A stretch of 64,000 nucleotides of DNA from Gemmatimonadota bacterium (GTDB lineage: Bacteria; Gemmatimonadota; Gemmatimonadetes; Palauibacterales; KS3-K002). Each line of letters starts with the position of its first letter. Position 1 is the first letter of the stretch. The stretch lies in the NCBI GenBank assembly GCA_039586495.1, contig JBDHKG010000020.1, forward strand, positions 1,181 through 65,180. The letters run 5' to 3'. Under the pieces are notes generated by a model. It had not been told where the DNA came from, ran no database searches, and saw only the letters and a list, made by a program, of their open reading frames with translations. The position numbers and the translations under genes are program-made. Below, piece by piece: positions 8,833-60,118 of the stretch.

Positions 8833-9438
8833 CTACATCCTCCTGTTAGCCAGGACATCCCAGCCGGCACTGACTGTACCCCGCGAGCGCCCTCGTGGAT
8901 CGATGTCGTTGTAGTTCCAGACGATCCTCGCAAAGCTCAGCCGCACCTCCTCCATGACCGGCCCGGACGACTCGCTGCCCGTCATGGCAGTCGTGATCAT
9001 CACATCGGTGAGCCTGACGCTGCCGATCGGTGAGGTGCTGCCGGGAGCGTAGAACACGAGCTCGGCCTCCGGATAGTGCCTGCCCTCGGCGCAGGCGACG
9101 GCGAGCAGAGGACTCGACTTGTCGATGGACTTCGTGACCGCGACATCCTGGAACTGAGCTCGGCCGGCGGTTCGCGCTCCACCGGTCGGGACAGCGCCGG
9201 CGCTACTGGCCAGGCCGTAGTTGAAGCTCAAAACCTCGATCCAGTTCTCGTGACCGGCTCGCGTCGCCCCACCCTCGATGCCTTCGATCCGCAGGAAGGC
9301 GTTGGCGGCCGCCGCGAGTGGCGCTAGCGAGTCCGTCGCAGCGCTGCCGGTTCTGTCCGCCGACACAGCCGCGGTGAGAGTCAGGGCGCCGAGAGCGAGC
9401 GCGGCCGCGAGAAGCGTCATTGGCTGTCTGCGAAACAT
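8833..9438 (-). CDS. Hcp-family (T6SS tube protein-like) protein with an N-terminal signal-peptide-like extension.
   Basis: Matches Hcp1: 'AFLRIEGIEGG..HENWIEVLSFNYG' ~ 'MFIKIGDVKGES..HAEEIDVLAWSWG', and 'FQDVAVTKSIDKSSPLLAVACAEGRHYPEAELVF' ~ 'LSFTKYIDKSTPNLMMACSSGKHYPQAKLTI'. The N-terminus is MFRRQPMTLLAAALALGALTLTAAVSA. Confidence 0.7.
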   Translation of the reverse strand: MFRRQPMTLLAAALALGALTLTAAVSADRTGSAATDSLAPLAAAANAFLRIEGIEGGATRAGHENWIEVLSFNYGLASSAGAVPTGGARTAGRAQFQDVAVTKSIDKSSPLLAVACAEGRHYPEAELVFYAPGSTSPIGSVRLTDVMITTAMTGSESSGPVMEEVRLSFARIVWNYNDIDPRGRSRGTVSAGWDVLANRRM

Positions 9439-9565
9439 ACTCCCCTCCTTGGTTATGGAGACCAGCGTTGGCTCAGATGTTGTCAGTCAACCTGAGACGA
9501 GACCGAAGATCGCAACGCCGCTGAGCTGGAGCCCCAGAGTCGCGGGCATGACTTGCGCCTGCTCG

Positions 9566-9928
9566 TCAGAGGCGATCGAGCTCTTCCACCGTGCGCTCGC
9601 TCCGCACGTTCCCGGTGTTCAAGGTGGACTGGGGCTCCAACACCAGCACGTGGACTTCTTCCGGCGCGACGGGCAGATGCTCCACGCCGTGCGGGATGAT
9701 CACGAACTCGCCTTCGTCCAGCCAGATGTCGCGATCGCGCAGCTTCATCTGAAGCCTGCCCTTGACCACGAGGAAGAGTTCGTCCTCTTCGTCGTGGTGG
9801 TGCCAGACGAACTCGCCCTGCAGCTTGACCAGCTTGACGTGGAAGTCGTTGACTTCACCGACGATCTTCGGGCTCCACAGGTCGGGGAATAGCGACAATT
9901 TCTCCGTGATGTTGACCTTCTCCACCAT
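9566..9928 (-). CDS. Cupin-domain protein.
   Basis: 120 aa with a cupin_2-like core: 'HHHDEEDELFLVVKG...IIPHGVEH'. Confidence 0.8.
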   Translation of the reverse strand: MVEKVNITEKLSLFPDLWSPKIVGEVNDFHVKLVKLQGEFVWHHHDEEDELFLVVKGRLQMKLRDRDIWLDEGEFVIIPHGVEHLPVAPEEVHVLVLEPQSTLNTGNVRSERTVEELDRL

Positions 9929-11152: not shown

Positions 11153-12082
11153 ATGGACGAGGGCGGTTCCAGACTGCAGCTCTTACTGGCGGAGCTCAGG
11201 CGCCGTAAGGTCTTCCGCGTCGCCGTCGTCTACGCTGCTGTCGCCTTCGTCATCTGGCAGATCGCCGAGATCGCCGTCCCCGGCCTGAACCTCCCCTCCT
11301 GGGTGCTCACCCTGGTCATCCTGCTCACCGCACTCGGCTTCCCCATCGCCGTCGGCCTCGCCTGGGCGTTCGACATCACGCCGGAGGGTGTCAAACGCAC
11401 CGAGCCGGAGGGCACGGCGGTCGAGCGGTTGGCGGTGCCGACTGTCGAAGTCGCGGCGGAGCGGAAATCGATCGTCGTGCTGCCGTTCGACAACATGAGC
11501 CCCGATCCCGCAGATGCGTACCTCAGCGACGGCCTGACCGAGGAGATCATCACCGGCCTATCCTGCTGCGGCCCGCTGCGCGTGATCTCGCGCAACTCGG
11601 CCCGGGCCCTCAAGGGCACACAGAAGGACACCCGCACCATCGCGCGGGAGCTCGATGTCCAGTACGTGCTCGAAGGCAGCGTGCGCAAAGCGAAGCGGTG
11701 GCGCAAGCCGAGGCCGTCACGCCGCACTTGCCGCAAAGCGCTGTCGGCACGATGCCGGATGAAGAGACCTGGCTCGAGACACCACCGAGCCACTATATCG
11801 AGATCCAAATCTACTACGAGATGGGCCACAGCTATGACGACGCTCTCGAGGCCCTGGTCGAGACGCTGGTTCGGACAGGAACGAGCCCGGAGTCGGCGAC
11901 GGCCTATGAACGAAGATGGCAGGGCTTGGATTGGGACGGCCTCTGGGTCTTCGATCTCTCTGCGTCGGCTTCGCTTCCCTGTCACTGGTGCCAGGCCATC
12001 GCCTATCAGCCCGTTCTTCAGGACGCTGGAAGACGACCCAGAGTACGTCGAACTCTTGCACGTGATGGGCCTGAGGCCCTGA
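11153..12082 (+). pseudogene. Degraded head copy of the receptor/TPR paralog family. The N-terminal module and the C-terminal end motif are intact; the middle is scrambled or deleted.
   Basis: Starts MDEGGSRLQLLLAELRRRKVFRVAVVYAAVAFVIWQ. The N-terminal module runs to 'LEGSVRKA' (~11690), then the frame dissolves into basic low-complexity sequence. A second frame (11698..) is more protein-like. The in-frame tail 'FFRTLEDDPEYVELLHVMGLRP' matches the family C-terminus ('SDPRYQELLRRVGL'). Confidence 0.5.
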
Positions 12083-12094
12083 CCGGATGGTGGC

Positions 12095-13834
12095 ATGTCC
12101 TCCCTCCTCGAGCGTCTGAAGGAGCGCAAGCTTTTCCAGTGGGCTCTGGCCTACCTGGCCGGTGCATGGCTCATCCTGCAGCTCGTCGAGGTGCTGGGAC
12201 AGATCTTCCAGTGGTCGCTCGCCGTCCAGCAGGGCATCACGGTTCTGCTAGCCATCGGCTTCTTCCTTGCCCTGGTCCTTGCCTGGTACCACGGCGAGAA
12301 AGGGCGTCAGCGTGCCAGCGGGGCGGAGCTTCTGATGATCGCGGCGCTGTTGGCGATCGCGGCCATCTTGCTCACCATCGTGGGGCCGAAAGAAGAAGCG
12401 GCTACGACCTCCGAACCGATGCTGGCGGTCGAGGGCGAAAAGCCGGCCGTCGCGGTCCTCCCCTTCGAGAATATCAGTCCCAATCCCGAGGACGCCTACT
12501 TCGCCGACGGGATGCACGAACAGATCACCTCGCAGCTTTCCCAGGTATCGGCGATCCGGGTGATCTCGCGGACTTCGGTGATGCAGTACCGCGAGGAGAG
12601 AAAGCCGGTTCGTGATATCGCTGCGGAGTTGGGCGTCAACTACCTGCTGGAAGGCAGCGCGCGAAAGGCCGAGGATCGGGTTCGGCTCACGGTGCAGCTC
12701 ATCGATGCTGATCGCGACGAGCACGTCTGGGCAGAGGAGTACGACCGGGACCTGACAGCCGCACACCTGTTCGAGATACAGAGTGAGGTAGCCGAAAGAG
12801 TCGCATCTGCCCTGGAGGTCGAACTCACCACAACCGAGCGCGAGCGGATCGAGCGGCACCCCACCGAGAGCCTCGCCGCCTACGACCTCTATCTGCTCGG
12901 CCGCTACTACTGGAACCAGCTGGACGCTGAGGGACTGAGGCGCGCCGTCGAGTACTTTGAAGGTGCGATAGATCTCGATTCCGATTTCGCGCTGGCGTAC
13001 ACCGGTCTCGCCGACACTTACATGATTCAAACGCAAGGCTGGGGCCTCGCGCCGAGGGATGTCTTCCCGAAGGCGCGTGAGGCGGCCACACGGGCGCTGG
13101 AACTGGATCCGACGCTGGCGGAGGCTCACGCCTCGCTCGGACACGTTCGACTCTTCTACGACTGGAATTGGGAGGGTGCTGAAGCTGCGTTTAGGCGGGC
13201 GATCGAGCTCAATCCGAACTACGCGCCGGCACCGCATTGGTTGGCGATGTGTCTCATGGCTCGGGCTCATTTTGCAGAGGCGATCCAGGCGGTCCAGCAG
13301 GCTCTCGCGCTGGATCCCCAGTCACCCTACGTCAGAATGAACGTGGGCTACATCTTTTATGTGTCTCGGCAATACGACCGGGCGCTCGCGGAATACAGCG
13401 ATGCTTTGGAGGCCCACCCGAATGCTGTGATGCGCGCTGTGCGCGGCGGGGTTTATGTGCAGCAGGGAATGTTCGACGAGGGCATCTCGGACATCGAGCT
13501 GGCCAGTGAGATGCTGGAGGGGCGCAACCTGATCCCTGCGGCCTACCTGGGCTTTGCCTACGCGCGTGCCGGTAGAAGAAACGATGCCGAGCGGGTTCTC
13601 CGTGAGCTTCAGGAAATCTCAGCCGAACGGTTCGTGAATCCCGACTACCTCGCGATCGTCCTTATCGGTCTCGGCGAGAACGACCGGGCGATCGAGTGGC
13701 TGTATCGGGCCACCGAGGCGCGGACCGACTGGCCCGTCTTCTTCCCGGTCGATCCGGTGACCGACTCGATTCGGTCAGACCCGCGATACCAAGAGCTTCT
13801 TCGCAGGGTCGGCTTGTCGGAGCTCATCGAGTGA
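12095..13834 (+). CDS. Receptor-like membrane protein, paralog 2: N-terminal conserved helix, TM segment, TolB-N-like periplasmic module and TPR repeats.
   Basis: N-terminal motif 'LKERKLFQWALAYLAGAWLILQ'. The module 'VAVLPFENISPNPEDAYFADGMHEQITSQLSQVSAIRVISRTS...LEGSARKAEDRVRLTVQLIDA' resembles a TolB N-terminal domain and is followed by multiple TPRs. Confidence 0.8.
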   Translation: MSSLLERLKERKLFQWALAYLAGAWLILQLVEVLGQIFQWSLAVQQGITVLLAIGFFLALVLAWYHGEKGRQRASGAELLMIAALLAIAAILLTIVGPKEEAATTSEPMLAVEGEKPAVAVLPFENISPNPEDAYFADGMHEQITSQLSQVSAIRVISRTSVMQYREERKPVRDIAAELGVNYLLEGSARKAEDRVRLTVQLIDADRDEHVWAEEYDRDLTAAHLFEIQSEVAERVASALEVELTTTERERIERHPTESLAAYDLYLLGRYYWNQLDAEGLRRAVEYFEGAIDLDSDFALAYTGLADTYMIQTQGWGLAPRDVFPKAREAATRALELDPTLAEAHASLGHVRLFYDWNWEGAEAAFRRAIELNPNYAPAPHWLAMCLMARAHFAEAIQAVQQALALDPQSPYVRMNVGYIFYVSRQYDRALAEYSDALEAHPNAVMRAVRGGVYVQQGMFDEGISDIELASEMLEGRNLIPAAYLGFAYARAGRRNDAERVLRELQEISAERFVNPDYLAIVLIGLGENDRAIEWLYRATEARTDWPVFFPVDPVTDSIRSDPRYQELLRRVGLSELIE

Positions 13835-13881
13835 AGGCACAGGCTCGACTGGACACGCTCATTCTTCTGGAGGGACCGCTG

Positions 13882-14406
13882 ATGAAGCGCGCACCGATCG
13901 TAGCGACCATCGCACTCCTGCTCGCTGCAACCGCCGGGCAGGCTCAGGAAGCGAAGCCGGGCCCCGAGCACGAGAAGCTCGGGTTCTGGATCGGCGAGTG
14001 GCAGATCGAGGCGGAGGCGAAACCCAACCCCCTGTTCCCCGAAGGGCCGTACTACGGCGCGATGACCGCCGAGTGGTTCGAGGGTGGGTTCCACGTTCTC
14101 GTTCGCACTGATTGGACGGGAGCTCTGGGGCCTTACGCCGAGCTCAACATCCTGGGCTACGATCCGCTCGCCGAGGAATACTTCAACTATGCCGTCGATG
14201 GTCTGGGTAGCAACATGGTGTTCACCGGTCCGGCGGAAGACAACGTCTTCACCTACCTGGCCGAGTTCGAGGCCGAGGGGACGCACGTCGCTTTCAGGTG
14301 GACGGTCACCGACGTATCGCCCGGGGTGATCACCTGGACGAGTGAGCTGTCCATCGATGGCGGCCCGTGGATCTTGGCCGGCGAGGCGAAGGCTACGCGG
14401 CAGTGA
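13882..14406 (+). CDS. Secreted hypothetical protein (DUF1579-like), inserted within the paralog array.
   Basis: The internal ATG at 13882 gives MKRAPIVATIALLLAATAGQAQE, a signal peptide, with GGAGGG 7 nt upstream. The overlapping minus-strand ORF 13645..14424 is antisense junk. Confidence 0.6.
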   Translation: MKRAPIVATIALLLAATAGQAQEAKPGPEHEKLGFWIGEWQIEAEAKPNPLFPEGPYYGAMTAEWFEGGFHVLVRTDWTGALGPYAELNILGYDPLAEEYFNYAVDGLGSNMVFTGPAEDNVFTYLAEFEAEGTHVAFRWTVTDVSPGVITWTSELSIDGGPWILAGEAKATRQ

Positions 14407-14433
14407 GGCCGGGTATCCGACCATGATGACAGC

Positions 14434-16428
14434 ATGAGCCTCCGCGTGTTCTTGTCCGAGCTCAAACGCCGCCGCGTCTACCGCGTCGCCGTCGTCTACG
14501 CTGCGGTCGCTTTCGTCATCTGGCAGGCGGCGGACTTCGCTCTGCCGGCACTGAGACTCCCGGACTGGGTCCCCACACTGGTCGTCGTTCTCACTCTCAT
14601 CGGTTTCCCCATAGCTCTTGTTCTAGCGTGGGCGTTCGATATCACGCCGGACGGTCTGAAGCGTACGGAGCGGGTGAGCCATGCCGCGGCCGCGGGAACG
14701 AGCCGCCGCGGTGCTATCGCGGTCTTCGTCGCCGGAGCGCTGCTGGCCTTCGTTGCCGCCCTTGTCCTCCTGTACCCACGGCACGGTCCGATGCTCGATC
14801 GAGAGCGGGTCGTGGTCGCCGTCTTCGAGAATCAGACCGGAGATCCGTCCCTGGACCCGGTCGGCCGAATGGCGCAGGACTGGATCACCCAGGGCATCGC
14901 CCGCACCGGCCTGGTCAAGGTTGTCCCCACGTTAGAGGCCCTGCGGTCATTCCAGTACGTGGAAGCACAGGCGGGCGCGCTGAGCGCGGCGAGGGGAATC
15001 CGATCGTTTGCTGAGGAGACTGGAGCCGCGTTCGTGGTCTGGGGCAGCTACTACCGGCAGGGAGAGATCCTGCGATTCCAGGTCCAGGTATCCGACGCGA
15101 GCGGTCGCGCCGCGAGACTTGTCGCGGCCCTCGACCCCGTCGACGGCGCGGCCGAGGACCCCGTAGGTGCCCTGGAGGTACTGCGCCAGCGTGTCATGGG
15201 TGCGTTGGCCAGCTTCTTGGATTCGCGGTTGAGCGGTTTCGGCGACGAGTTCGCATCACCGCCCACCTACGAGGCATACCTCGCGTTTGTCCGATGTGTC
15301 GAGCTGTACGTTGCGGGAGAGATAGCGGGCTCCGTCGAGCATTGCCTCAGGGCTCATGCATCGGATACGACGTACGTGCTGCCCCTACTGCACGCGGCGG
15401 TTTCCTACTCCGTCCTCGGCCGGCCTACCCAGGCGGATTCTCTCCTTCGAATCGCGGCGCGTGCCCGAGATCGGCTGTCCCGAGGCGAGCGGCTCTGGCT
15501 GGACCATTGGCGGGCCTACGTGGACGGGGATCACGGGGAGGCGCTCCGCCTGGCTCGCGAGGGTGCCGATCTCATCGGTGGGCAGGCTTGGCACTACGCC
15601 GTCGGCGACGACGCGATATACGCCAACCGGCCGCAGGCGACGCTGGAGGCCTCTGCCCGCATCGATCCTGCGCGCGGCTGGGTCAGAGGTTGGGTGTACT
15701 ACTGGGACAACCTGACCAAGGCCTACCATATGCTCGGCGACCACGAGCGCGAATTGCAGCAAGCCAGACGTGGCCGCCGGCAATACCCGGAGTCCCAGCA
15801 GGCGCTCCAGTACGAGCTGCGAGCACTGGCCGCTCTCGGGCGAGTCGATCAGGTCCGCGCACTTCTGGAGGAGAGTCGTAGGCTGCCGGGGACCCCGTAC
15901 TGGTATGTGAGGCATTCCCGCGACGCCGCGTACGAGCTGCGCGTCCACGGCCATCGAGGAGCAGCCGACGAGATCATCCAGCGTGCGCTGGACTGGCTGC
16001 GCGCCCGTCCCCCTGAGGAGACAGCGACGACGGCTCACAGGGGTCATCTCGCGTTCACCCTGTACGGCGCCGAGCGTTGGCAGGAAGCTGGGGAGGTGTT
16101 CGATTCCCTGGCGGCCGAGTTTCCCGGGGATCTGGACTATACGACGGGGTACCCGGGCGTTGTCGCAGGGCGGCTGGGCGAGCGCGAGACGGCGCTGCGC
16201 TTTGACGGCGCGCTGGCGGCGCAGGACGCGCCCTTTCTGAACGGGGCGAATACCTACTGGCGGGCCCGCATCGCGGCGGTGCTCGGAGATCGAGAGCGGG
16301 CGGTTGAGCTGCTGCGTGCCGCGTATGCCGAGGGCTATAAACACGGCATACACGTCCACCGCGACATGGACTTCGAGTCCTTGTATGACTACGCGCCGTT
16401 CCTCGACCTGCTTCGGCCGAAGGGATAG
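14434..16428 (+). CDS. Receptor-like membrane/TPR protein, paralog 3.
   Basis: MSLRVFLSELKRRRVYRVAVVYAAVAFVIWQAADFALPALRLPDWVPTLVVVLTLIGFPIALVLAWAFDITPDG, then a second TM and a long TPR-like C-terminal region. Confidence 0.8.
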   Translation: MSLRVFLSELKRRRVYRVAVVYAAVAFVIWQAADFALPALRLPDWVPTLVVVLTLIGFPIALVLAWAFDITPDGLKRTERVSHAAAAGTSRRGAIAVFVAGALLAFVAALVLLYPRHGPMLDRERVVVAVFENQTGDPSLDPVGRMAQDWITQGIARTGLVKVVPTLEALRSFQYVEAQAGALSAARGIRSFAEETGAAFVVWGSYYRQGEILRFQVQVSDASGRAARLVAALDPVDGAAEDPVGALEVLRQRVMGALASFLDSRLSGFGDEFASPPTYEAYLAFVRCVELYVAGEIAGSVEHCLRAHASDTTYVLPLLHAAVSYSVLGRPTQADSLLRIAARARDRLSRGERLWLDHWRAYVDGDHGEALRLAREGADLIGGQAWHYAVGDDAIYANRPQATLEASARIDPARGWVRGWVYYWDNLTKAYHMLGDHERELQQARRGRRQYPESQQALQYELRALAALGRVDQVRALLEESRRLPGTPYWYVRHSRDAAYELRVHGHRGAADEIIQRALDWLRARPPEETATTAHRGHLAFTLYGAERWQEAGEVFDSLAAEFPGDLDYTTGYPGVVAGRLGERETALRFDGALAAQDAPFLNGANTYWRARIAAVLGDRERAVELLRAAYAEGYKHGIHVHRDMDFESLYDYAPFLDLLRPKG

Positions 16429-16434
16429 CCGGCT

Positions 16435-18240
16435 ATGAAAGAAGAGCGTTCGAGCTTCAGTGCGCTGCTCGCCGAGCTCAGACGCCGCCGCGTCTACCGG
16501 GTCGCCGTCGTCTATGCGGTTGTCGCCTTCGTCATCTGGCAGGCGGCGGAGATCGCCTTCCCGGCTCTGAACCTGCCGCCCTGGACGCTCACCTTCGTCG
16601 TCGTTCTGACCCTCCTGGGTTTCCCCATCGCGCTCGTACTCGCCTGGGCGTTCGATATCACACCGGAAGGTGTGAAGCGCACGGCACCGGGTGCGGGAGC
16701 GGCGCCGCTTTCGACTCGACGTGGTGGAGCTATCGTGGCGGCTGCGGGTCTTGCGGTCGTGGCGCTGGTCGTCGCGGCCGGCTGGCTCCTACTGCGGGAG
16801 GAAGGCGGTGCCTCCGCCGACAGGACGATGCTGGTGGTGCTGCCGCTCGAGAATCTGGGGGCTGCGGACGACGAGTACTTCGCTGACGGTGTATCCGAGG
16901 AGATACACTCCAAGCTCAGCGCCGTCAGTGCCCTCGGAGTCATCGGGCGAACAAGTGCCCGTCAGTACAAGAACACCGACAAGACGATCTCGGAGATTGG
17001 CGACGAACTCGGCGTCGATTTTATCGTGGATGGTGCGGTCCGCCTGCAACACCAGCAGGGCAGCCGCGTGGTTCGTGTCAACACCGAGCTGATCCGGGTG
17101 TTGGATGCGAGGAGCATCTGGTCGAACACTTACGAAGCCTTGCTGGAAGACATCTTCCGGGTGCAGACCGATATCGCGCTTCACGTCGCTGAGGCGCTGG
17201 AGGTCACACTCCTCCAGCCCGAGCGCAGGTCGTTGACGGCTCGACTGACCGAGAATCTTCAAGCCTACGACTACTACCTCTTAGGTCGCCAATACCTGGC
17301 TCAGTGGGAGCTGGGAGCCATCGAGCAAGCTATCCAGTACTTCCGACGCGCCGTTGAAGCGGATTCCAGCTACGCTCGGGGCTACGCGGGCCTGGCGTAC
17401 GCCTATGCCGTTCTGGGGGGCTTTGGGGGCGTTCATCCGAACGACTCTTGGCCCTATGCGAGGGTGGCAGCAGAAAAGGCTTTGGCGCTGGACGAGGGAT
17501 TGGCGGAGGCCCACACCGCAATGGCAGTCGAGGCGATGTCGCATCGCTACGAGTGGCGGGCGGCGAGGGAAGAGTTCGAGCGAGCCCTCGAGCTCAACCC
17601 GAGTTCCGTTGACGCTCTAGTGTGGTACGCGATGCTTGAGGGCGGGATATGGGGACAGTTCGATCGTGCCATGGAGCTCTTGGTGCGTGCCGAACGATTG
17701 GACCCGCGCTCTAGGGAGGTCAGCTACAACATCGGGTGGCCGCTGCTCTGGGCTGGACGGCAGGAGGAGGCCGTGGCAGCGTTCGAGAGCCTAGTGGCGT
17801 CGGAGCCGGAGTACTACGGGGGCCACGAGGGTCTCGCCATTGCTCTGATGGCACAGGGCAGGTACGAGGAAGCGCTCGCTGCAGCACAAACCACGATGGC
17901 TGTGGGCGATCCCAACTATGATCCGGCGATCGGTCTCCTCGGGTATCTCTTCGGCCGATTGGGACGGAGAGCCGACGCCTTGAAGCAGCTCGAGCGACTC
18001 GACGAGCTCGCCGCGCGTGGGAGATACGTGTCGCCCGTGAGCAGAGCGCACGTCTACGCTGGGCTCGACGAGCCTGACGAAGCGTTCGCGTGGCTGGAGA
18101 AGGGCTACGAAGAGCGAACGCACTGGCTCATCTGGTTGGGAAGGGAGCCGTACGATTGGGAGAACCTGGCGTCCGACCGGCGCTTCCAAAATCTGGTCCG
18201 TCGCATGAACTTCCCGCGTCCGATGGCCGAAGCGAGATGA
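16435..18240 (+). CDS. Receptor-like membrane/TPR protein, paralog 4.
   Basis: ELRRRRVYRVAVVYAVVAFVIWQAAEIAFPALNLPPW..., then a TolB-N-like module ('LVVLPLENLGAADDEYFADGVSEEIHSKLSAVSALGVIGRTS') and TPRs. The start is 7 nt after the previous stop. Confidence 0.8.
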   Translation: MKEERSSFSALLAELRRRRVYRVAVVYAVVAFVIWQAAEIAFPALNLPPWTLTFVVVLTLLGFPIALVLAWAFDITPEGVKRTAPGAGAAPLSTRRGGAIVAAAGLAVVALVVAAGWLLLREEGGASADRTMLVVLPLENLGAADDEYFADGVSEEIHSKLSAVSALGVIGRTSARQYKNTDKTISEIGDELGVDFIVDGAVRLQHQQGSRVVRVNTELIRVLDARSIWSNTYEALLEDIFRVQTDIALHVAEALEVTLLQPERRSLTARLTENLQAYDYYLLGRQYLAQWELGAIEQAIQYFRRAVEADSSYARGYAGLAYAYAVLGGFGGVHPNDSWPYARVAAEKALALDEGLAEAHTAMAVEAMSHRYEWRAAREEFERALELNPSSVDALVWYAMLEGGIWGQFDRAMELLVRAERLDPRSREVSYNIGWPLLWAGRQEEAVAAFESLVASEPEYYGGHEGLAIALMAQGRYEEALAAAQTTMAVGDPNYDPAIGLLGYLFGRLGRRADALKQLERLDELAARGRYVSPVSRAHVYAGLDEPDEAFAWLEKGYEERTHWLIWLGREPYDWENLASDRRFQNLVRRMNFPRPMAEAR

Positions 18241-18247
18241 GAGAGCG

Positions 18248-19988
18248 ATGAACGATCCGCCGTCTCGTCTGAACTCCTTCCTTAGCGAACTGAAACGCCG
18301 CCGCGTCTATCGCGTCGCCGTCGTCTATGTGGTCGTGGGTCTGGGTGTCCTTGGCGCCGCCGAGGTCATCCTGGACCCGCTCGGCCTGGAAGCCCTCCGG
18401 GCCTACATCGTTATCCTCGTGCTGCTCGGCTTCCCCATCGCCCTTGTCCTCGCGTGGGCATATGAGGTGAAGCCGGAAGAGCCAAGAGAGGCCGAGCCGA
18501 TCACCACAGCGATCATCGAAACCGCAGAGACCGAGCGTAAGAAATCCATCGTTGTCCTCCCATTCGACAACCTTAGTCCCGATCCCGGGGATGCCTACTT
18601 CAGTGACGGGTTGACGGAAGAGGTCATCACCAACCTATCGCACCTCCAGTCTTTGCGTGTGATCTCGAGAAACTCGGCGATGGCGCTCAAGGGCTCCCAG
18701 AAGGACACACGGACCATTGCTGAAGAGCTCGACGTTCAATACGTCCTTGAAGGGAGCGTGCGGAAGGCAGGGGATGATCTGCGCATTACGGCTCAGCTGA
18801 TCGATGCGGGGAGTGACGAGCATCTCTGGGCAGAGAAGTACGACGGACGGCTCGAAGATGTCTTCGAGATGCAGGAGAAAGTGTCTCGTTCCATTGTTGA
18901 CGCCCTCGCGCTCAGGCTGAGTCCGGCAGAGGAGCGCAGGCTGGCTGATCGTCCGATCAAGAACCTCACCGCCTTCGAGTGTTTGTTGAGAGCGAGAGCC
19001 GACATGTGGCTTCTGAGTAGCGAAGGCCTCGACCGTGCACTCGATTGGGCCGAGCGTGGTCTCAGCATCGTGGGTGACGATGCGGAGCTACTGGCCATGA
19101 AGGGCGTCATCCTCTTCCAGTACGTCAACACCCTGGCCGCGCCTCCGGAGACCTATTCGTCGCTCATGGGGCAGGCGCAGGCATGTGCAGACCGAGCGTT
19201 ATCTCTCAACCCTGAGTCAGGGTGGGTCCAATGGGTGCAGGCCGCGATCCGCCATCAGAGCGGTGATCCGGGGGGGATGATCCGGCACATGGACAGGGCG
19301 GTTGCCCTGGAACCGAGCCATGCGGACGCACTCATGTTACTTGGGTATCAGCTTGCTGCGGTGGGTCGGCATCTCGATCACGCACACCGGTTGTTGACCC
19401 GAGCCGCTGAGTTGGATCCGCTCACGCCGATGATCCAGGGAGCCCTCGGTGCGCTCAAGATGTTCGAAGGCGAGTTCTCGGAAGCCGCGAACTGTTTCAG
19501 CGATTGGCAGCAGGCGTTGGAGAAGGGGGAAAAGTCCCTTTCGGTTCTGGGTCGCCTGGATTCATGCGGCGAGCGGAAACCTCGACGAGGCCGTCCGGCT
19601 CGTGGATCAGATGGTGAGCGATTCCCCGGACCATATCCTCACGAAGGGAATGAAGTTCCTGAGACACGCCTGGCTCGGACAGCGGGCGGCGGCCGTGGAA
19701 GCACTGACGGACGAATGGGAGAAGGCGGCCCGCTGGGATGACTTCTATCCCCTCCTCATGGCGGACGGATATGCCCTTATCGGAGAACCAGAGCTTGCCC
19801 TCCGGTGGTTGGAGTACACGATCGACTATGGGATCAGGAATCCCGCGTTCCTCGGGAAGCATGAGCCATTCCTCGAGCCCCTTCGGTCCACCCAGCGGTT
19901 TGGAGAACTGATGGAAAAGGCGACCCGGCTGTCGGAGCCCCTCCCCGTACCTGCAGAGTCAATCCAACTGATGGGCGGCGGCCGATGA
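18248..19988 (+). CDS. Receptor-like membrane/TPR protein, paralog 5. It needs a +1 frameshift near 19520..19560 to reach its conserved C-terminus.
   Basis: N-terminus SELKRRRVYRVAVVYVVVGLGVLGAA plus the TolB-N-like module. ORF 18248..19741 ends in junk ('RKPRRGRPARGSDGERF...'). Frame 0 (19449..19988) encodes a plausible C-terminus ('WIHAASGNLDEAVRLVDQMVSDSPDHIL...RWLEYTIDYGIRNPAFLGKHEPFLEPLRSTQRFGELMEKA'). A homopolymer gggggaaaag sits at 19526..19534. Confidence 0.6.
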
Positions 19989-22351
19989 ATCTGCACGTGT
20001 TCTTCTCGGAACTGAAACGCCGCCGCGTCTACCGCGTCGCGGTTGTCTACGCCGCCGTCGCCTTCGTCATCTGGCAAGCGGCCGAGATCGCCTTCCCGGC
20101 GCTCAGCGTTCCGGATTGGGCGCTCACGCTGGTCGTCGTTCTCACACTCATCGGCTTCCCCATCGCCGTCGTCCTCGCCTGGGCCTTCGAGATCACGCCC
20201 GAAGGGGTGAAGCGCACCGCGCCGGCGAGTGGCGCGCCCGCGGAGGTGGTGCGTCCGTCGATTCGGAGGTTCCGGCTCGCAGCCGCGGCAGCGGTCGTCC
20301 TGGTCGTGATCGTCGCCGCGTGGTGGGCCTGGGCGCGGCGGCCCTCGCCGGTGTCAGATCTGTCCGCCAATCGCATCGCCGTCTTTCCCTTCGCGATTCG
20401 GGGTGAGGAAGATCTTCTGTACCTGCACGAGGGCATGGTCCACCTGCTGAGCAATGCGCTGGACGGCGCCGGTGAGCTCCGCACCGTTGATCCCCACGCG
20501 CTCCTGAGCGGTCTGTCGGTGCAAGAGGGGGACGCGCCCGATCCAGAGACGGCGGGCGCCGTCGCTGCTCGCTATGGCGCGGGTCTCTATGTGTTAGGAA
20601 GCGTGGTCGGCTCGGCGGAGCGGATGGAGATGACGGCGTCGCTGTACGATGCGACCAGAGGCGACAGAACCACCGCCGAGACCGTGCCCGGGCGTGAAAT
20701 GGACATCCATGATCTTGTGGACGAGCTCGCCCGCGGCCTGGTTGCGGAGCTGGCAGGTCGGCCGGGCGACCGGCTCGTGGGTCTCGCGGCGCGTACGACC
20801 CGGTCCGTTCCCGCTCTTAAAGCCTACTTGGAGGGTCAGGTTGCTCTGGGGCACGTTGACCTGAACGGAGCGATCGAGGCGTTCCGCGGCGGTGTCGAAT
20901 TGGACAGCGGTTTCGTTCTGGCCCGTTACAAACTGGCGGTCGTGACCGCCTGGGAAGGTAGCGGTCAGCAGGGGCGCATGCTGGCCGTTCGCGCCCTGCG
21001 CGACAGCGCAATGCTTCCTCCTCGCGAGCGCCGCCTGCTTGTGGGCCTGCACGCTTTTCTGACGGGTGACATACAGACTGCGGAAGAAGCGTACGGCGCC
21101 GTCTTGGGGGAGTACCCCGATGAGGTGGAAGCCAACTACATGTTGGGAGAGACCCTCTTTCACCTGAGCCCCTATCGCGGACGCTCGATGCAACGTGCTC
21201 GAGGTCCGTTAGAGCGTGCTCTGGTTGTGAATCCCGACGATGTCATCACTCTTCATCATCTGGCGGCACTCGCCATCAAGCGAGGCGATATGGTCGCGGC
21301 CGATTCACTGGTGCGCCACGCATTGGCAGCTGAGCCGGCCCCGTGGTTCGGCACCTCTCTACATGTGATGCGGGCCCTAACGAGCGACGATCACACCTTA
21401 CGCGTCGCGGCGGAAGGCGAGCTGGTATCAGTGGAGACGCTTGGGTTGTACGGGTCTGCAATGGTGGCCACTTCAGTCTTCCATCAACCGCGCGAGGGTC
21501 GCTGGGTCGTCGAGGCGCTGACAGCGTCGCACCGGCCCAGTCAGGTCCGGGCCGCAGGCCATGCCATGCTTGCCTACCTCGATGTGGCCAATGGTCGTTG
21601 GAACCAGGCCGAGCAGGAGCTGCTTGAGGTGGATCATCTGTACCCCATCGGCCCGAGCTACCGGGCCTACCTCGTCCTGCTCCCGCTGACCCCGTACGAC
21701 CAGGCTGAGCTGGAACGACGACTCGCTGAGGTGGCGGACTGGGATGCGGCGGGTACACCGCCCAGTTCGTTCGCCCAGTTGCTGCCGCCACACGAGGTGC
21801 AGCCGGCCATCCGTGTTTATCTACTGGGGATGTTGAATGCGCGGCTCGCTCGTGACTCGGCTGCGCTTGCTCACGCTGACCGCCTGCAGCAGGTGGAGTG
21901 GACGGTCGGCGGCAATATCTCGGCGACACTGGCACCGGGGATTCGCGCAGCCCTCGCGGCCGCCCACGGTGAGGTGGAGCAGGCACTGCGATTACTGGAA
22001 GCGGCGCCGTTCGAGGGGAATTATGAAGAGCTCGTATCGTCGCCCGTGCTCGCGATGGCCGCGGAGCGCTACTTGATGGCCGAGCTGCTCGTGGCCGTAG
22101 GTCGCAGCCGCGACGCGCTCGGCTGGTTCGCGTCGCTGGGTGGCTTGCAGCCCTACGAGATTGCCTACGTCGCGCCGGCGCATCTACGTCGCGCACAGAT
22201 CCACGAGCGCCTAGGTGAGCTGCAGCAGGCCGCGGAGCACTACGCCCGCTTCATCGAGCTCTGGCGGGACTGCGACCCTGAACTGCGGGCTCTTGTCGAG
22301 GAAGCCGAGCGCCGGCTGGAGGCGCTGGCCGAGTCGCCCGCCAGCCCCTAA
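19985..22351 (+). CDS. Receptor-like membrane/TPR protein, paralog 6, with a divergent ectodomain.
   Basis: MNLHVFFSELKRRRVYRVAVVYAAVAFVIWQAAEIAFPALSVPDWALTLVVVLTLIGFPIAVVLAWAFEITPEGVKRT. The start overlaps the previous stop (ATGA). Confidence 0.8.
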   Translation: MNLHVFFSELKRRRVYRVAVVYAAVAFVIWQAAEIAFPALSVPDWALTLVVVLTLIGFPIAVVLAWAFEITPEGVKRTAPASGAPAEVVRPSIRRFRLAAAAAVVLVVIVAAWWAWARRPSPVSDLSANRIAVFPFAIRGEEDLLYLHEGMVHLLSNALDGAGELRTVDPHALLSGLSVQEGDAPDPETAGAVAARYGAGLYVLGSVVGSAERMEMTASLYDATRGDRTTAETVPGREMDIHDLVDELARGLVAELAGRPGDRLVGLAARTTRSVPALKAYLEGQVALGHVDLNGAIEAFRGGVELDSGFVLARYKLAVVTAWEGSGQQGRMLAVRALRDSAMLPPRERRLLVGLHAFLTGDIQTAEEAYGAVLGEYPDEVEANYMLGETLFHLSPYRGRSMQRARGPLERALVVNPDDVITLHHLAALAIKRGDMVAADSLVRHALAAEPAPWFGTSLHVMRALTSDDHTLRVAAEGELVSVETLGLYGSAMVATSVFHQPREGRWVVEALTASHRPSQVRAAGHAMLAYLDVANGRWNQAEQELLEVDHLYPIGPSYRAYLVLLPLTPYDQAELERRLAEVADWDAAGTPPSSFAQLLPPHEVQPAIRVYLLGMLNARLARDSAALAHADRLQQVEWTVGGNISATLAPGIRAALAAAHGEVEQALRLLEAAPFEGNYEELVSSPVLAMAAERYLMAELLVAVGRSRDALGWFASLGGLQPYEIAYVAPAHLRRAQIHERLGELQQAAEHYARFIELWRDCDPELRALVEEAERRLEALAESPASP

Positions 22352-22401: not shown

Positions 22402-25400
22402 ATGCTCCGCCGCCTGATCTCCGGGGGTGCGGCCCTGCTGCTCTCCGCTGCCCTGGCCGCGCCGCTCCACGCACAGGTCGATCCCGAGCTGCTGGCCGGC
22501 ATGCGCGCCCGCTCCATCGGGCCCGCCGGGATGAGCGGCCGGATCGGCAGCGTCGACGCAGTCGTCTCGAACCCCAACATCATCTACGTGGGCACCGCGA
22601 CCGGCGGCGTCTGGAAATCGGTGAACGGGGGCGTAAGCTTCGAACCGATCTTCGACGACCAGCCGGTCCATGCCATCGGCGCCGTCCGGGTATTCCAGGC
22701 GAGCCCGGACATCGTTTGGGTGGGTACGGGGGAGGGTAACCCGCGGAACAGTGTGTCGGGCACGGGCTACGGGGTCTTCAAGTCGATGGACGCCGGTCGC
22801 AACTGGACGCACCTGGGTCTCGAGAACACCGAGCGCGTCCACCGGATCGCGCTGCACCCGTCGAACCCTGACATCGCTTACGTCGGCGCGATGGGCTCGA
22901 TGTGGAAGCCGAACCCGGAGCGCGGTGTGTTCAAGACCGAGGACGGTGGCCGGACCTGGCAGAAGATCCTCTATGTCGATGAGAACACGGGCGTCGGCGA
23001 CATGGAGATGGATCCGACGAACCCGAACAAGCTGATCGTGGCGATGTGGGAGTACCGGCGCTGGCCGTGGTTCTTCAAGTCGGGTGGGCCCGGTTCCGGT
23101 CTCTTCCTGACGGTGGACGGCGGCCGCAACTGGACGAAGCTGACGCCGGAGGACGGGCTGCCCGAGGGGGACGTGGGTCGCATCGGTCTGGCGATCGCGC
23201 CGTCGAATCCGAACATCGTCTATGCGCTGACCGAGGCAAGCGAGAACGCGCTGTACAAGTCGGAGGACGGCGGCTACACCTGGAGGAAGATCGACTCTGA
23301 GGGCACGATCGGGAACCGTCCCTTCTACTACTTCGACCTGCGGGTCGATCCCCAGGATCCGAACCGCGTCTACAGTCTCTATTCGCGTGTGGGCTTGTCG
23401 ACGGATGGGGGCAGGAGTTTCCAGGTGCTCGTCCGCGGCGGTGTCCATTCCGACCACCACGCGATGTGGATCAACCCGAACGATCCGTCACACATCATCG
23501 ATGGTAACGATGGCGGCGTGTACATCAGCCGCGATCACGGTCAGACCTGGCGGTTCGTCACGGACCTGCCGCTGGCCCAGTACTACCACATCAACGTGGA
23601 CATGGAGACGCCGTACAACGTGCTCGGCGGCCTGCAGGACAACGGGTCGTGGCGCGGGCCCAGCAGCGTCTGGGAGGACGGCGGGATACGCAATCACCAC
23701 TGGCAGCGGGTCGGCGGCGGCGATGGGTTCGCGACGCTGGCGCTCCCCAGCGACCCGAAGGTGGGCTACTCGATGAGCCAGGGGGGCAACCTGAGGCGCT
23801 GGAACGTTTACAGCGGCGAGTTCAAGGACATCCGGCCGGCACACCCGGATGGTGTCGAGTTGCGCTTCAACTGGAACGCGGCGATCGCCGTTGATCCCTT
23901 CGACCCGAACATCGTCTATTACGGCAGCCAGTTCGTCCACAAGTCGCCCGACATGGGCGAGACGTGGGAGGTCATCAGCCCGGACCTGACGACGAATAAC
24001 CCAGAGCGGCAGAAACAGCAGGAGAGCGGTGGCCTGACCTACGACGTCACCGGCGCCGAGAACTTCACGACGATCATGACGATCGCGCCCAGCCCGGTGG
24101 CGCAGGGCGTCATTTGGGTCGGCACCGATGACGGTCGTGTGCACGTGACCCGGGACGGCGGCGCGACATGGACGAGCGTGGAGCGAAACGTGCGTGGCGT
24201 GCCCGCCAACACCTGGGTACCGCACATCGAGCCATCGAAGTTCGACGCGGCGACGGCGTATGTGGTCTTCGACAACCATCGGCGCGGCGACTTCACGCCG
24301 TACGTCTACGTGACGCGCGATTACGGCCGGCGCTGGAGCAGCCTGGTGAGCGACGACATCTGGGGCTACGCGCTGGTGGTCGAGCAGGACCCGGTGAAGG
24401 AGGACCTGCTGTTCCTGGGGACGGAGTTCGGGCTGTACTCCAGTCTCAATGGTGGCCAGAGCTGGATGAAGTGGACGCACGGGTTCCCGACGGCGTCGGC
24501 GATGGCGCTGATCGTGCACCCGCGTGAGCACGACCTGGTGATCGGCACGCACGGGCGTTCGGTGTACATCATCGACGACATCCGTCCGTTGCGGACGATC
24601 TCGGCGGAGACAATGGCGCAGCCGATTTACCTGTTCGAGATCCCGGATGCCATCCAGTACCAGGAGAATCAATCTGCGGGTGAGGGTTCTCCGGGGCACG
24701 GCGCGTTCCGTGGCGAGAACCGGCCGTACGGTGCGCTGATCACTTTCTCCCTGAACATCGAGGGCCTGCCGCGCGCCAGCGCGCAGCAGCCTCAGCCGGG
24801 AGGGTCCGGGCAAGGGGGGCCGCAAAGGTTCGGGCAAGCGCGGCGCGGGCCGCAGGTGACGGTCGAGATCAGCGACTCGGACGGCGAGCTGATCCGCACC
24901 TTGCGGGCGCCGGCGCGGCTGGGTGTGAACCGGATTGCCTGGAACCTGCGGCGCGACGAGTTCAGGCGCCCGAGGGCCGCCGAAGAGCAGGAGGAGTTCT
25001 TCCGCTTCGGGCGCGGCGGGCCGGACGTGCTGCCCGGCAGCTACGGCGTGAAGATCAAGTACGGCGACCACGAGGCAACGGGTTCGGTGAACGTGCTGGC
25101 CGACCCGCGCTACGACATCACGCTGGCAGAGCGGGAGGAGAAGCTGGCGGCCATCATGTACGCCGGTGCCCTGCAGGAGGTGGTGGCCGACGCGGTCGAG
25201 CGCATCCGGGACACGCGTAGCGAGATCGACGATGTGCTCGAGCGGCTCAGGAGAGCCGAGGAAGAGAGCGGAGACGACGAGCTGCTGCGGGCAGGACGCA
25301 GCCTCAACACGGCGCTGACAGAACTGGAAAAGGAGTTCTGGTCGCCTCCGGGCAGCAGGGGCCAGCGCACTCCCCGGACGGACAACGTGCTCCGGCTGAT

Positions 25401-25614
25401 TGAGAGGGTGTCCAGCTCGCTCGAGTCGTCCTGGGACGCGCCGACGCAGGCCCAGGAGATCAACCTGCGGCAGGCGGAGGCGATGTTACAGGACGCTCTG
25501 GACGAGTTCAACCAAGTCTTCGCCGAGGACGTGGCCGAGTTCATCGACAAGGTGGAGGCAGTGGGGATCAGCTTCGTAAAGTCTACGGAGCCGCTAGCGA
25601 TGCCGCAGCGCTAG
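22402..25614 (+). CDS. Secreted BNR/Asp-box repeat protein (sortilin/VPS10-like, GH74-like beta-propellers), copy 1.
   Basis: 1070 aa. Signal peptide MLRRLISGGAALLLSAALAAPLHAQ. Repeated S-x-D-x-G-x-(T/S)-W motifs ('SMDAGRNWT', 'TEDGGRTWQ', 'TVDGGRNWT', 'SEDGGYTWR', 'TRDGGATWT'). Confidence 0.85.
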   Translation: MLRRLISGGAALLLSAALAAPLHAQVDPELLAGMRARSIGPAGMSGRIGSVDAVVSNPNIIYVGTATGGVWKSVNGGVSFEPIFDDQPVHAIGAVRVFQASPDIVWVGTGEGNPRNSVSGTGYGVFKSMDAGRNWTHLGLENTERVHRIALHPSNPDIAYVGAMGSMWKPNPERGVFKTEDGGRTWQKILYVDENTGVGDMEMDPTNPNKLIVAMWEYRRWPWFFKSGGPGSGLFLTVDGGRNWTKLTPEDGLPEGDVGRIGLAIAPSNPNIVYALTEASENALYKSEDGGYTWRKIDSEGTIGNRPFYYFDLRVDPQDPNRVYSLYSRVGLSTDGGRSFQVLVRGGVHSDHHAMWINPNDPSHIIDGNDGGVYISRDHGQTWRFVTDLPLAQYYHINVDMETPYNVLGGLQDNGSWRGPSSVWEDGGIRNHHWQRVGGGDGFATLALPSDPKVGYSMSQGGNLRRWNVYSGEFKDIRPAHPDGVELRFNWNAAIAVDPFDPNIVYYGSQFVHKSPDMGETWEVISPDLTTNNPERQKQQESGGLTYDVTGAENFTTIMTIAPSPVAQGVIWVGTDDGRVHVTRDGGATWTSVERNVRGVPANTWVPHIEPSKFDAATAYVVFDNHRRGDFTPYVYVTRDYGRRWSSLVSDDIWGYALVVEQDPVKEDLLFLGTEFGLYSSLNGGQSWMKWTHGFPTASAMALIVHPREHDLVIGTHGRSVYIIDDIRPLRTISAETMAQPIYLFEIPDAIQYQENQSAGEGSPGHGAFRGENRPYGALITFSLNIEGLPRASAQQPQPGGSGQGGPQRFGQARRGPQVTVEISDSDGELIRTLRAPARLGVNRIAWNLRRDEFRRPRAAEEQEEFFRFGRGGPDVLPGSYGVKIKYGDHEATGSVNVLADPRYDITLAEREEKLAAIMYAGALQEVVADAVERIRDTRSEIDDVLERLRRAEEESGDDELLRAGRSLNTALTELEKEFWSPPGSRGQRTPRTDNVLRLIERVSSSLESSWDAPTQAQEINLRQAEAMLQDALDEFNQVFAEDVAEFIDKVEAVGISFVKSTEPLAMPQR

Positions 25615-56464: not shown

Positions 56465-56502
56465 CTGGTTTGGTGCGGGGCCAGCTTCCAGGGAGGAACG
56501 CG

Positions 56503-56958: not shown

Positions 56959-56960
56959 CG

Positions 56961-60112: not shown

Positions 60113-60118
60113 CCTCTG

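What the first reader, a model, noticed from the sequence alone, without database searches (positions are those of the whole stretch)
8833..9438. Orphan Hcp-like (T6SS tube fold) protein carrying a predicted signal peptide
Clear Hcp1-family similarity across the whole fold. Two things are atypical: a ~45-aa N-terminal extension that looks like a Sec signal peptide (positive N-region, Ala/Leu-rich core, AVSA cleavage-like site), and no other T6SS core genes in 64 kb.

Hcp is normally cytosolic and exported through the T6SS itself. A Sec-exported Hcp-fold protein could be an exapted periplasmic or secreted ring protein.
Basis: partly seen in the sequence, partly recalled or inferred. Interest (0 to 1): 0.55.

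Follow-up and report, generated by a model that had tools for sequence, protein, structure and literature searches.

The report
Hcp tube-fold protein with export signal
A Gemmatimonadota gene encodes a full copy of the type VI secretion "tube" protein Hcp with a conserved export signal and no secretion-machine genes nearby, so it probably works outside the cytoplasm independently of that machine, and many environmental bacteria carry similar proteins that I found described in no paper.

Summary
Window 8833-9438 (minus strand) encodes a 201-aa protein. Residues 46-201 are a complete Hcp domain (Pfam PF05638, E 8.7e-32; AF2 model TM 0.89 to P. aeruginosa Hcp1). Residues 1-27 look like a Sec signal peptide and residues 28-45 form a variable linker.

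The start codon is real. An AAGGAGG ribosome-binding site lies 5 nt upstream. The same GGAGG-ATG arrangement opens the hydrophobic segment in all 10 orthologous loci examined. No usable start codon lies near the Hcp domain. dN/dS is below 1 across the whole ORF.

None of the 43 window ORFs scanned is a T6SS gene. The gene sits in a conserved housekeeping neighbourhood (cupin, Hcp, EamA, acyltransferase, Tricorn) in the Gemmatimonadota MAGs whose locus includes the flanks.

Signal-bearing Hcp homologs are common: 74 of 109 single-domain relatives carry one. In six independent lineages they had no T6SS neighbour. Two signal-less relatives used as controls sat inside complete T6SS loci.

Best reading: a Sec-exported, T6SS-independent Hcp-fold protein that probably forms rings. 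Its ligand and role are unknown. Export, cleavage, ring assembly and genome-wide absence of a T6SS remain untested. I rate it a new variant of a known kind, interest about 0.6.

The parts
9444..9450 (-). Shine-Dalgarno sequence AAGGAGG, 5 nt upstream of the ATG
   Evidence: Read from the sequence. An equivalent GGAGG at 5-7 nt lies before the orthologous ATG in all 10 loci.
9358..9438 (-). Codons 1-27, the predicted Sec-type signal peptide MFRRQPMTLLAAALALGALTLTAAVSA. It could instead be an N-in signal anchor. Likely cleavage lies between residues 24 and 28.
   Evidence: It has an Arg-Arg n-region, a hydrophobic core of about 19 aa, and the conserved motif TAAV[S/A]. dN/dS is 0.42. Other exported proteins in the window carry the same style of signal. 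There is no lipobox Cys. The RR is not conserved in orthologs (KR, AR, TR), so it is not a Tat signal.
9304..9357 (-). Codons 28-45, a variable low-complexity linker (DRTGSAATDSLAPLAAAA)
   Evidence: pLDDT is below 50. The sequence is poorly conserved among orthologs. dN/dS is 0.45.
8836..9303 (-). Codons 46-201, a complete Hcp (TssD-fold) domain
   Evidence: Pfam PF05638, E 8.7e-32. PDB 1y12, E 1.9e-22. AF2 plus Foldseek, TM 0.89. dN/dS is 0.145.
8833..8835 (-). Stop codon
8758..8782 (.). GC-rich hairpin (GGGCCGGCCC-5 nt-GGACCGGCCC) between the convergent EamA and Hcp-like stop codons. It may be a bidirectional terminator.
   Evidence: Inverted repeat I2. It has no T-run, so the consensus terminator scan did not call it.
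9566..9928 (-). Upstream same-strand Cupin_2 gene (120 aa, no signal peptide). It is a syntenic neighbour and possibly co-transcribed.
   Evidence: Pfam Cupin_2. It lies next to the Hcp-like gene in most orthologous loci, with gaps of about 33-50 bp in most of them versus 127 bp in the window. In L012 and L018 another gene lies between the two, so the linkage is not obligatory.

Best explanation
The gene encodes a pre-protein whose N-terminal signal sequence targets it to the Sec translocon. The chain crosses the inner membrane unfolded. It is most likely cut by signal peptidase I around residues 24-28. The Hcp domain, preceded by a flexible tail of about 18 aa, then folds in the periplasm. 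There, or after further release, it most likely assembles into the six-membered ring typical of the fold. It works without a T6SS sheath or baseplate, most plausibly as a ring-shaped binding or scaffolding protein of the cell envelope. This would reuse Hcp's known ability to hold small proteins in its lumen.

Shown here: the fold, the real start codon, conservation of the signal, purifying selection, the lack of T6SS neighbours, and membership in a broad class of signal-bearing Hcp homologs.

Inferred: export, cleavage, ring assembly and independence from any T6SS elsewhere in the genome.

Guessed: the ligand and the physiological role.
For: - Fold and family.
- Start codon and signal: SD-ATG conserved in 10 of 10 orthologous loci and no alternative start near the domain. 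The hydrophobic segment and TAAV motif are conserved down to 43% identity. Signals of the same style occur on the Tricorn, sortilin-like and OMP proteins of the same window.
- Functional gene: dN/dS is 0.145 for the domain, 0.42 for the signal and 0.45 for the linker, against 0.11-0.17 for neighbours. The gene keeps its position in a housekeeping neighbourhood in the Gemmatimonadota MAGs whose locus includes the flanks, including closed chromosome CP070812.1.
- T6SS independence: no T6SS family among 43 window ORFs. No T6SS gene lay within 10 kb of signal-bearing Hcp genes in six independent lineages. Both signal-less controls lie inside complete TssK-L-M-A-B-C-Hcp-E-F-G-ClpV loci.
- Breadth: 68 signal-peptide-like plus 6 lipobox-like N-termini among 109 single-domain relatives, and 42 of 114 in a second set. 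All 159 plasmid-borne Hcp matches start at query residue about 50.
- Ring: natural relatives occur as 1, 2, 3 or 6 Hcp domains per chain, with 38 of 64 multi-domain proteins having exactly six. A 6x concatemer of the mature protein gave AF2 pTM 0.71 over 1044 aa despite disordered linkers. Solved N-terminal fusions to Hcp1 (7o42, 4kss, 6ap1) show that an N-terminal appendage is compatible with the hexamer. That last step is my inference from how those constructs are designed.
Against: - No dedicated signal-peptide predictor could be run.
- The hydrophobic core of about 19 aa is long enough to be an uncleaved membrane anchor.
- The rest of this genome could not be searched for a T6SS.
- Ring geometry was not inspected, because no coordinates were available. 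The concatemer alignment consisted of natural six-domain proteins, which biases it towards a packed arrangement.
- No conserved partner gene emerged across lineages, so nothing points to a ligand.
- The protein is only 45-51% identical between sub-lineages whose neighbouring genes are 71-82% identical. That could mean relaxed constraint rather than a tuned function.
Confidence: 0.7

Rival explanations
1. The hydrophobic N-terminus is an uncleaved N-in/C-out signal anchor. The Hcp domain, as a ring held by six helices, would then be tethered to the periplasmic face of the inner membrane through the 18-aa linker rather than released.
For: The uncharged stretch is about 19-22 aa with mean Kyte-Doolittle about 2.05, which is within the transmembrane range (and my hand calculation). 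The HlyD-type membrane-fusion protein in the same window has a similar N-terminus that is normally an anchor. Relative P0018 has a clearly TM-like N-terminus plus a long linker. N-terminal fusions to Hcp1 place the partner on one ring face.
Against: A conserved small-residue motif (TAAV[S/A]) sits at the end of the hydrophobic stretch, as expected for a signal peptidase I site. Undoubted secreted proteins in the window have equally long Ala/Leu-rich signals. Many relatives have textbook cleavage sites directly before the canonical Hcp N-terminus, for example ...APLQA|AFDAFLK.
Confidence: 0.2
2. It is an ordinary cytosolic accessory Hcp of a T6SS encoded elsewhere, and the signal peptide is an artefact of a mis-called start codon.
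For: The rest of the genome was not available. JGI called the same gene from M7 (195 aa), which shows that start calls differ between pipelines.
Against: M7 still leaves the hydrophobic segment in place. No ATG/GTG/TTG lies between codon 25 and the domain, and GTG25 has no SD and is not conserved. SD-ATG is conserved in 10 of 10 loci. The N-terminus is under purifying selection. Signal-less relatives sit in T6SS loci and signal-bearing ones do not.
Confidence: 0.03
3. It is a decaying remnant of a lost T6SS or of a prophage or contractile-injection-system tail tube, with no present function.
For: It has no machine genes nearby. It matches PHROG 27303, of unknown function. It has diverged strongly between sub-lineages.
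Against: The ORF is intact in every ortholog. dN/dS is 0.145 for the domain. Its position is stable among housekeeping genes across species-level genomes. The window holds no phage or baseplate genes. There is no PADLOC hit.
Confidence: 0.03

Closest known systems
T6SS tube protein Hcp1/TssD of Pseudomonas aeruginosa (PA0085, PDB 1Y12)
   Same: It has the same domain over its full length: about 30% identity, only small indels, TM 0.89 and rmsd 1.9 A. The DKS(S/T)P...AC..G.HYP.A helix motif and the extended Gly-rich loop are present.
   Different: Hcp1 starts at the first beta-strand, has no signal peptide, is encoded in a T6SS locus and polymerises in the cytoplasm inside the TssBC sheath. This protein has a 27-aa export signal plus an 18-aa linker and no T6SS genes nearby.
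Signal-less Hcp relatives P0013 and P0256 (metagenomic; P0013 is 35% identical to the query)
   Same: They belong to the same Pfam family and have a similar domain length.
   Different: Both lie between tssC and tssE in complete T6SS loci. The query and five other signal-bearing lineages do not.
Engineered N-terminal fusions to Hcp1 (TrwK-Hcp1 7O42, EpsE/GspE-Hcp1 4KSS and 4KSR, Vps4-Hcp1 6AP1)
   Same: Extra polypeptide is attached to the N-terminus of an Hcp domain. From memory, these constructs use the Hcp1 ring to force hexamers. That would show an N-terminal tether is compatible with ring formation.
   Different: They are artificial and cytosolic, and the appendage is a folded ATPase rather than a signal or linker.
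Hcp-ET 'extended Hcp' toxins, and HilE of Salmonella (an Hcp-like regulator); both cited from memory
   Same: They are precedents for Hcp-fold proteins with added parts or with roles other than a plain tube subunit.
   Different: Hcp-ET proteins carry C-terminal toxin domains and still travel through the T6SS. HilE is cytosolic. Neither has an N-terminal export signal. The query ends at the Hcp domain.
Single-chain six-domain Hcp proteins of Planctomycetota (e.g. P0308, Pirellulaceae bacterium SH467, CP197412.1), noticed here
   Same: They have Hcp domains about 25-36% identical to the query, N-terminal motifs typical of exported planctomycetal proteins, and no T6SS neighbours.
   Different: Six domains are fused in one polypeptide of about 1050-2100 aa, often with extra domains. 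I found no description of them in the searchable literature.

Membership tests
Hcp/TssD sequence and fold family (Pfam PF05638, TIGR03344) | Significant full-length match to the family profiles | tested here: met
   PF05638: 110.6 bits against cutoff 23.5, profile positions 1-129 of 129. TIGR03344: 60.8 bits against cutoff 58.9, which is only marginal.
Hcp/TssD sequence and fold family (Pfam PF05638, TIGR03344) | Hcp beta-barrel fold with a single helix | tested here: met
   The AF2 domain has pLDDT mostly above 90. Foldseek to 1y12 gives TM 0.89 and rmsd 1.9 A over 159 columns. This is a predicted structure, not a solved one.
Functional T6SS tube subunit (TssD) | No Sec or Tat signal; cytosolic protein exported only through the T6SS | tested here: not met
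   A conserved N-terminal signal-like segment has a verified start codon.
Functional T6SS tube subunit (TssD) | Encoded in, or together with, a T6SS locus or a vgrG/PAAR/effector island | tested here: not met
   None was found in the 64-kb window or around the orthologs. Genome-wide presence of a T6SS could not be tested.
Functional T6SS tube subunit (TssD) | Assembles into hexameric rings | tested here: inconclusive
   The 6x concatemer gave pTM 0.71. Relatives show a 1/2/3/6 domain-copy pattern. No coordinates or multimer prediction were available, and Foldseek cannot assess a ring.
Functional T6SS tube subunit (TssD) | Head-to-tail stacking into a tube inside the TssB/TssC sheath | not testable with these tools
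   This needs the genome's sheath genes and structural or biochemical work. The stacking behaviour of canonical Hcp is described in PMC3925092.
Sec-type (signal peptidase I) signal peptide | Positively charged n-region, uncharged hydrophobic h-region, small residues at -3/-1 | tested here: met
   R3 and R4; residues 6-27 are uncharged; TAA, AVS or VSA motifs. The pattern is conserved in orthologs and matches in-window secreted proteins. The h-region is longer than typical.
Sec-type (signal peptidase I) signal peptide | Positive call and cleavage site from a trained predictor (SignalP, DeepTMHMM), or experimental cleavage | not testable with these tools
   No such tool is available. Only a crude heuristic of my own was run.
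Lipoprotein (signal peptidase II) signal | Lipobox ending in Cys | tested here: not met
   Residues 1-45 contain no Cys. Six other relatives do have lipobox-like sites.
Tat signal peptide | Conserved twin-arginine motif (S/T-R-R-x-F-L-K) | tested here: not met
   RR is present in the window protein, but orthologs have KR, AR or TR, and the following residues do not fit the motif.
Hcp-ET (extended Hcp effector) | C-terminal toxin domain after the Hcp domain | tested here: not met
   The protein ends at the canonical ...GWDVLANRRM Hcp C-terminus.
Phage or contractile-injection-system tail tube | Neighbouring sheath, baseplate, spike or other phage genes | tested here: not met
   The window contains none. 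The only PHROG hit is an Hcp-like family of unknown function.

The most novel reading that the evidence does not exclude
Signal-bearing Hcp proteins, and the planctomycetal single-chain six-domain versions, may form a widespread Sec-dependent class of Hcp rings that is independent of the T6SS. These rings would assemble outside the cytoplasm and do something no known Hcp does. One possibility is that they act as periplasmic traps for Hcp-carried toxins injected by attacking bacteria. Another is that they polymerise into an envelope or extracellular tube. Rapid divergence relative to neighbouring genes would fit an arms-race role.
Probability: 0.12. Interest if true: 0.85.

Novelty: new variant of a known kind. 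Interest (0 to 1): 0.6.

Why it matters
Hcp was defined from the start as a protein secreted without a signal peptide, and that property helped define the type VI secretion system. Here a complete Hcp domain sits behind a conserved, selection-maintained export signal, in a housekeeping neighbourhood with no secretion machine.

The same architecture recurs in many unrelated environmental bacteria. The public sources that name these proteins call them "type VI secretion system tube protein Hcp".

If these proteins really are exported, two things follow. First, Hcp genes cannot be used alone as markers of a T6SS in metagenomes. Second, the Hcp ring has been reused at least once, and probably many times, for a job outside the cytoplasm.

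The prediction is directly testable with export reporters, N-terminal sequencing and electron microscopy of the mature protein.

Tried and rejected
- Exact look-up of the window protein's contig found nothing on record.
- A 13-sequence alignment was too diverse for the genome scan, so I used the 7-sequence one. The window's own genome is not among the GTDB species representatives. The single genome-contig scan was then spent, so no genome-wide T6SS search was possible.
- The afdb50 fold library was unavailable.
- The sigma-70 promoter and intrinsic-terminator scans found nothing, which is uninformative for this phylum.
- PADLOC gave no hit.
- An NJ tree of 106 Hcp domains is star-like, with signal-bearing and signal-less forms intermixed and about 15 parsimony changes. 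I could not decide whether the signal arose once or many times.
- No conserved partner gene appears across lineages. Neighbours are Sel1/TPR/caspase in one, ATP synthase/EF-G in another, and MiaE/rhodanese in a third. The cupin linkage looks like general synteny rather than a functional pair, because L012 and L018 have another gene between the two.
Natural hexa-Hcp rows were accepted.
- Foldseek of the concatemer matched only single Hcp chains, so ring geometry stays unverified.
- Seven literature searches returned no paper whose title or abstract describes signal-peptide Hcp or six-domain Hcp. I opened only four of the papers, so absence from this library is not proof of novelty.

Full report
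**What is there**

Window 8833..9438 holds a 201-codon ORF on the minus strand. Its GC3 is 0.80, which is typical of real genes in this 66% GC window.

Residues 48-176 match the whole Pfam T6SS_HCP profile, E 8.7e-32. TIGR03344 is passed only marginally, at 60.8 against 58.9 bits. The best solved relative by sequence is P. aeruginosa Hcp1, PDB 1Y12, E 1.9e-22, aligned over residues 42-198 with three small indels.

An AlphaFold2 model built from 24 homologs has pLDDT mostly above 90 for residues 45-201 and below 50 for residues 1-42. Foldseek places the domain on 1Y12 with TM 0.89 and rmsd 1.9 A. The Hcp assignment is therefore solid.

**Is the N-terminal extension translated?**

The ATG at 9438 is preceded by AAGGAGG with a 5-nt spacer. 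Before the Hcp domain, the only other in-frame ATG/GTG/TTG codons are M7 and GTG25.
- M7 lies inside the hydrophobic segment. JGI used it as the start.
- GTG25 has no Shine-Dalgarno sequence and is a Thr codon in the 85%-identical ortholog.

I extracted the orthologous reading frames from ten loci. In every one, the ATG that opens the hydrophobic segment is preceded by GGAGG at 5-7 nt.

The segment is conserved as M-x-x-[KR/x]-R-x(3-4)-LLA..G.L..TAAV[S/A] down to 43% overall identity.

Nei-Gojobori dN/dS against the 85% ortholog gives:
- signal: 0.42
- linker: 0.45
- Hcp domain: 0.145
- four neighbouring genes: 0.11-0.17

The whole ORF is therefore coding and under purifying selection. The start is real.

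**What kind of N-terminus is it?**

It has two arginines, then about 19-22 uncharged residues with mean Kyte-Doolittle about 2.05 (hand calculation), then small residues that fit the -3/-1 rule (TAA|V, AVS|A or VSA|D).

There is no Cys, so it is not a lipoprotein. The Arg-Arg pair is not conserved in orthologs (KR, AR, TR), so it is not a Tat signal.

Undoubted exported proteins in the same window have the same style of signal. These are the Tricorn protease, two sortilin-like proteins and an OMP beta-barrel.

The hydrophobic core is long enough that an uncleaved N-in anchor cannot be excluded, and I could not run a trained predictor. Either way, the topology puts the Hcp domain outside the cytoplasm.

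**Context**

A Pfam scan of 43 ORFs found only housekeeping and envelope genes. Examples are DnaE, two cytochrome bc-type clusters, a MacB-type ABC exporter, a TonB receptor, Tricorn and TPR paralogs. There is no T6SS, phage or defence family.

The local gene order is rhodanese, cupin, Hcp-like gene, convergent EamA, acyltransferase, TPR, Tricorn, DsbH-thioredoxin. This order recurs in an 85%-identical relative and in the Gemmatimonadota MAGs whose locus includes the flanks, among them closed chromosome CP070812.1.

The gene is therefore an old, vertically inherited resident of this lineage and not an island. Between the two sub-lineages the neighbours are 71-82% identical, but the Hcp-like protein is only 45-51% identical. 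I cannot explain this. Exposure to outside selection and relaxed constraint are both possible.

**Is it a one-off?**

It is not. A full HMMER scan of 1.84 billion representative proteins gave 9126 hits at E<=1e-3.

Among the single-domain proteins in the pooled set (the best 150 representatives plus the 24 homologs), N-termini classified as follows:
- signal-peptide-like: 68
- lipobox-like: 6
- no extension: 30

Many have textbook cleavage sites directly before the canonical Hcp N-terminus, for example MKLRFILSLAALLAAAPLQA|AFDAFLK. A second, profile-based search gave 42 of 114 with a hydrophobic N-terminal extension.

Both samples are biased, because their queries carried signals. The class is nonetheless clearly large.

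All 159 plasmid-borne Hcp matches, mostly from Proteobacteria, begin at query residue about 50.

**Context contrast**

Signal-bearing Hcp genes from six independent lineages had no T6SS gene within 10 kb:
- the Gemmatimonadota family
- P0024, which has a Tat-like RRDIL motif
- P0018
- P0197, on a 2.58-Mb planctomycete/verrucomicrobium-type contig
- P0180, from 'Geobacter sp.'
- P0211

I took two signal-less relatives as controls. Both sit between tssC and tssE in complete T6SS loci. Two controls are few, but the contrast is sharp.

**Ring formation**

This was not directly tested. Three indirect lines support it:
1. The query aligns along the full length of Hcp1, including the extended loop.
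2. Relatives occur with 1, 2, 3 or 6 Hcp domains per chain. Of 64 multi-domain representatives, 38 have exactly six. The 4- and 5-domain cases look truncated. This pattern is what a six-fold ring predicts.
3. A 6x concatemer of the mature protein, aligned with natural six-domain proteins, gave pTM 0.71 over 1044 residues even though the linkers were disordered. That implies a defined mutual arrangement of the domains.

I had no coordinates, so I did not see the geometry. Foldseek matched only single Hcp chains.

For comparison, canonical Hcp hexamers are 80 A rings with a 40 A lumen that stack head-to-tail in the cytoplasm (PMC3925092).

**Comparison with the known**

By sequence and fold this protein is an Hcp. 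As a functional TssD it fails two defining features tested here: absence of an export signal and linkage to T6SS genes.

It is not an Hcp-ET, because it has no C-terminal domain. It is not a phage tube, because there are no phage neighbours.

Seven full-text searches returned no paper whose title or abstract describes signal-peptide Hcp homologs or six-domain Hcp proteins. The library is incomplete and I opened only four of the papers, so this is weak evidence of novelty. The public sources that give these proteins a name call them T6SS tube protein Hcp.

**Verdict**

The most likely mechanism is Sec export of an Hcp-fold protein that forms rings in the envelope and acts independently of a T6SS. 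My confidence is about 0.7 for export plus independence, and much lower for any specific role.

I rate it a new variant of a known kind, with moderate to high interest. It contradicts a textbook property of the family and appears to be widespread. However, every step beyond the sequence is inference.

Noticed in passing
Not in the window. Proteins P0025-P0038, P0040-43, P0073, P0308 and others; locus L029 10001-13279 (Pirellulaceae bacterium SH467, CP197412.1): Some single polypeptides of about 1000-2100 aa carry exactly six tandem Hcp domains (38 of 64 multi-domain representatives). This suggests a covalent six-fold ring. Sixteen start with a [LIVMF]E.R.[LVM][LMF][SA] motif, and one hits Pfam PF07595; from memory, both mark exported planctomycetal proteins. 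Others start directly with an Hcp domain and have C-terminal extensions of 300-600 aa. The copy in the cultured strain has no T6SS gene within 10 kb. I found no paper describing them.
   Followed up: partly
L021 10001-11299; L025 10001-11522: In two unrelated lineages a signal-bearing Hcp gene is followed directly by a second signal-bearing Hcp gene. The second carries a C-terminal extension (235 aa and 345 aa, the latter with a faint TSP3 hit). The pairs are flanked by housekeeping genes such as ATP synthase, EF-G and MiaE.
   Followed up: partly
L008 10001-10576 (protein P0024): An Hcp homolog has an N-terminus that looks like a Tat signal (NRRDILRTATGLAAAAVVGGAL). It lies on a 454-kb contig with no T6SS genes nearby. 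Tat exports folded proteins, which would be interesting for a ring former.
   Followed up: no
window 8833-9438 compared with L007 and L011-L020: The Hcp-like protein is only 45-51% identical between sub-lineages whose flanking genes (cupin, EamA, acyltransferase, Tricorn, DsbH) are 71-82% identical. Against the close relative L001, however, its domain dN (0.035) is lower than that of the neighbours. This points to episodic divergence, which is unexplained.
   Followed up: partly
window 11153-22351: There is a tandem array of about six paralogous membrane-anchored TPR proteins with the N-terminal motif ...RR.V(F/Y)RVAVVYA... One copy is only an N-terminal fragment (11153-11692). Another appears frameshifted near 19530, running 18248-19531 in one frame and 19530-19943 in the next. 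My GC3-based pick 11230-12129 (-) is probably the antisense shadow of the fragment.
   Followed up: partly
window 22402-25614 and 25753-29085: Two adjacent paralogous Sortilin/BNR-repeat proteins of about 1100 aa have nearly identical signal peptides (MLRRLIS.GAA.LL..ALAAPLHA|QVD).
   Followed up: no
window 55202-58058 (+) and 58127-63098 (-): Two divergently oriented clusters each combine multihaem c-type cytochromes with a Rieske protein and a cytochrome b. These are duplicated bc-type respiratory modules.
   Followed up: no
L012 1694-3202 (and the equivalent gap in L018): In two Gemmatimonadota MAGs a gene is inserted between the cupin and the Hcp-like gene. In L012 it encodes a 502-aa predicted lipoprotein with internal repeats. 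The downstream EamA/acyltransferase block is replaced in both loci.
   Followed up: no
window 34724-36390 (-): A BlaR1-type M56 peptidase fused to a TonB C-terminal domain lies next to a BlaI/Penicillinase_R repressor. Downstream are a MacB-type ABC exporter and a penicillin amidase.
   Followed up: no
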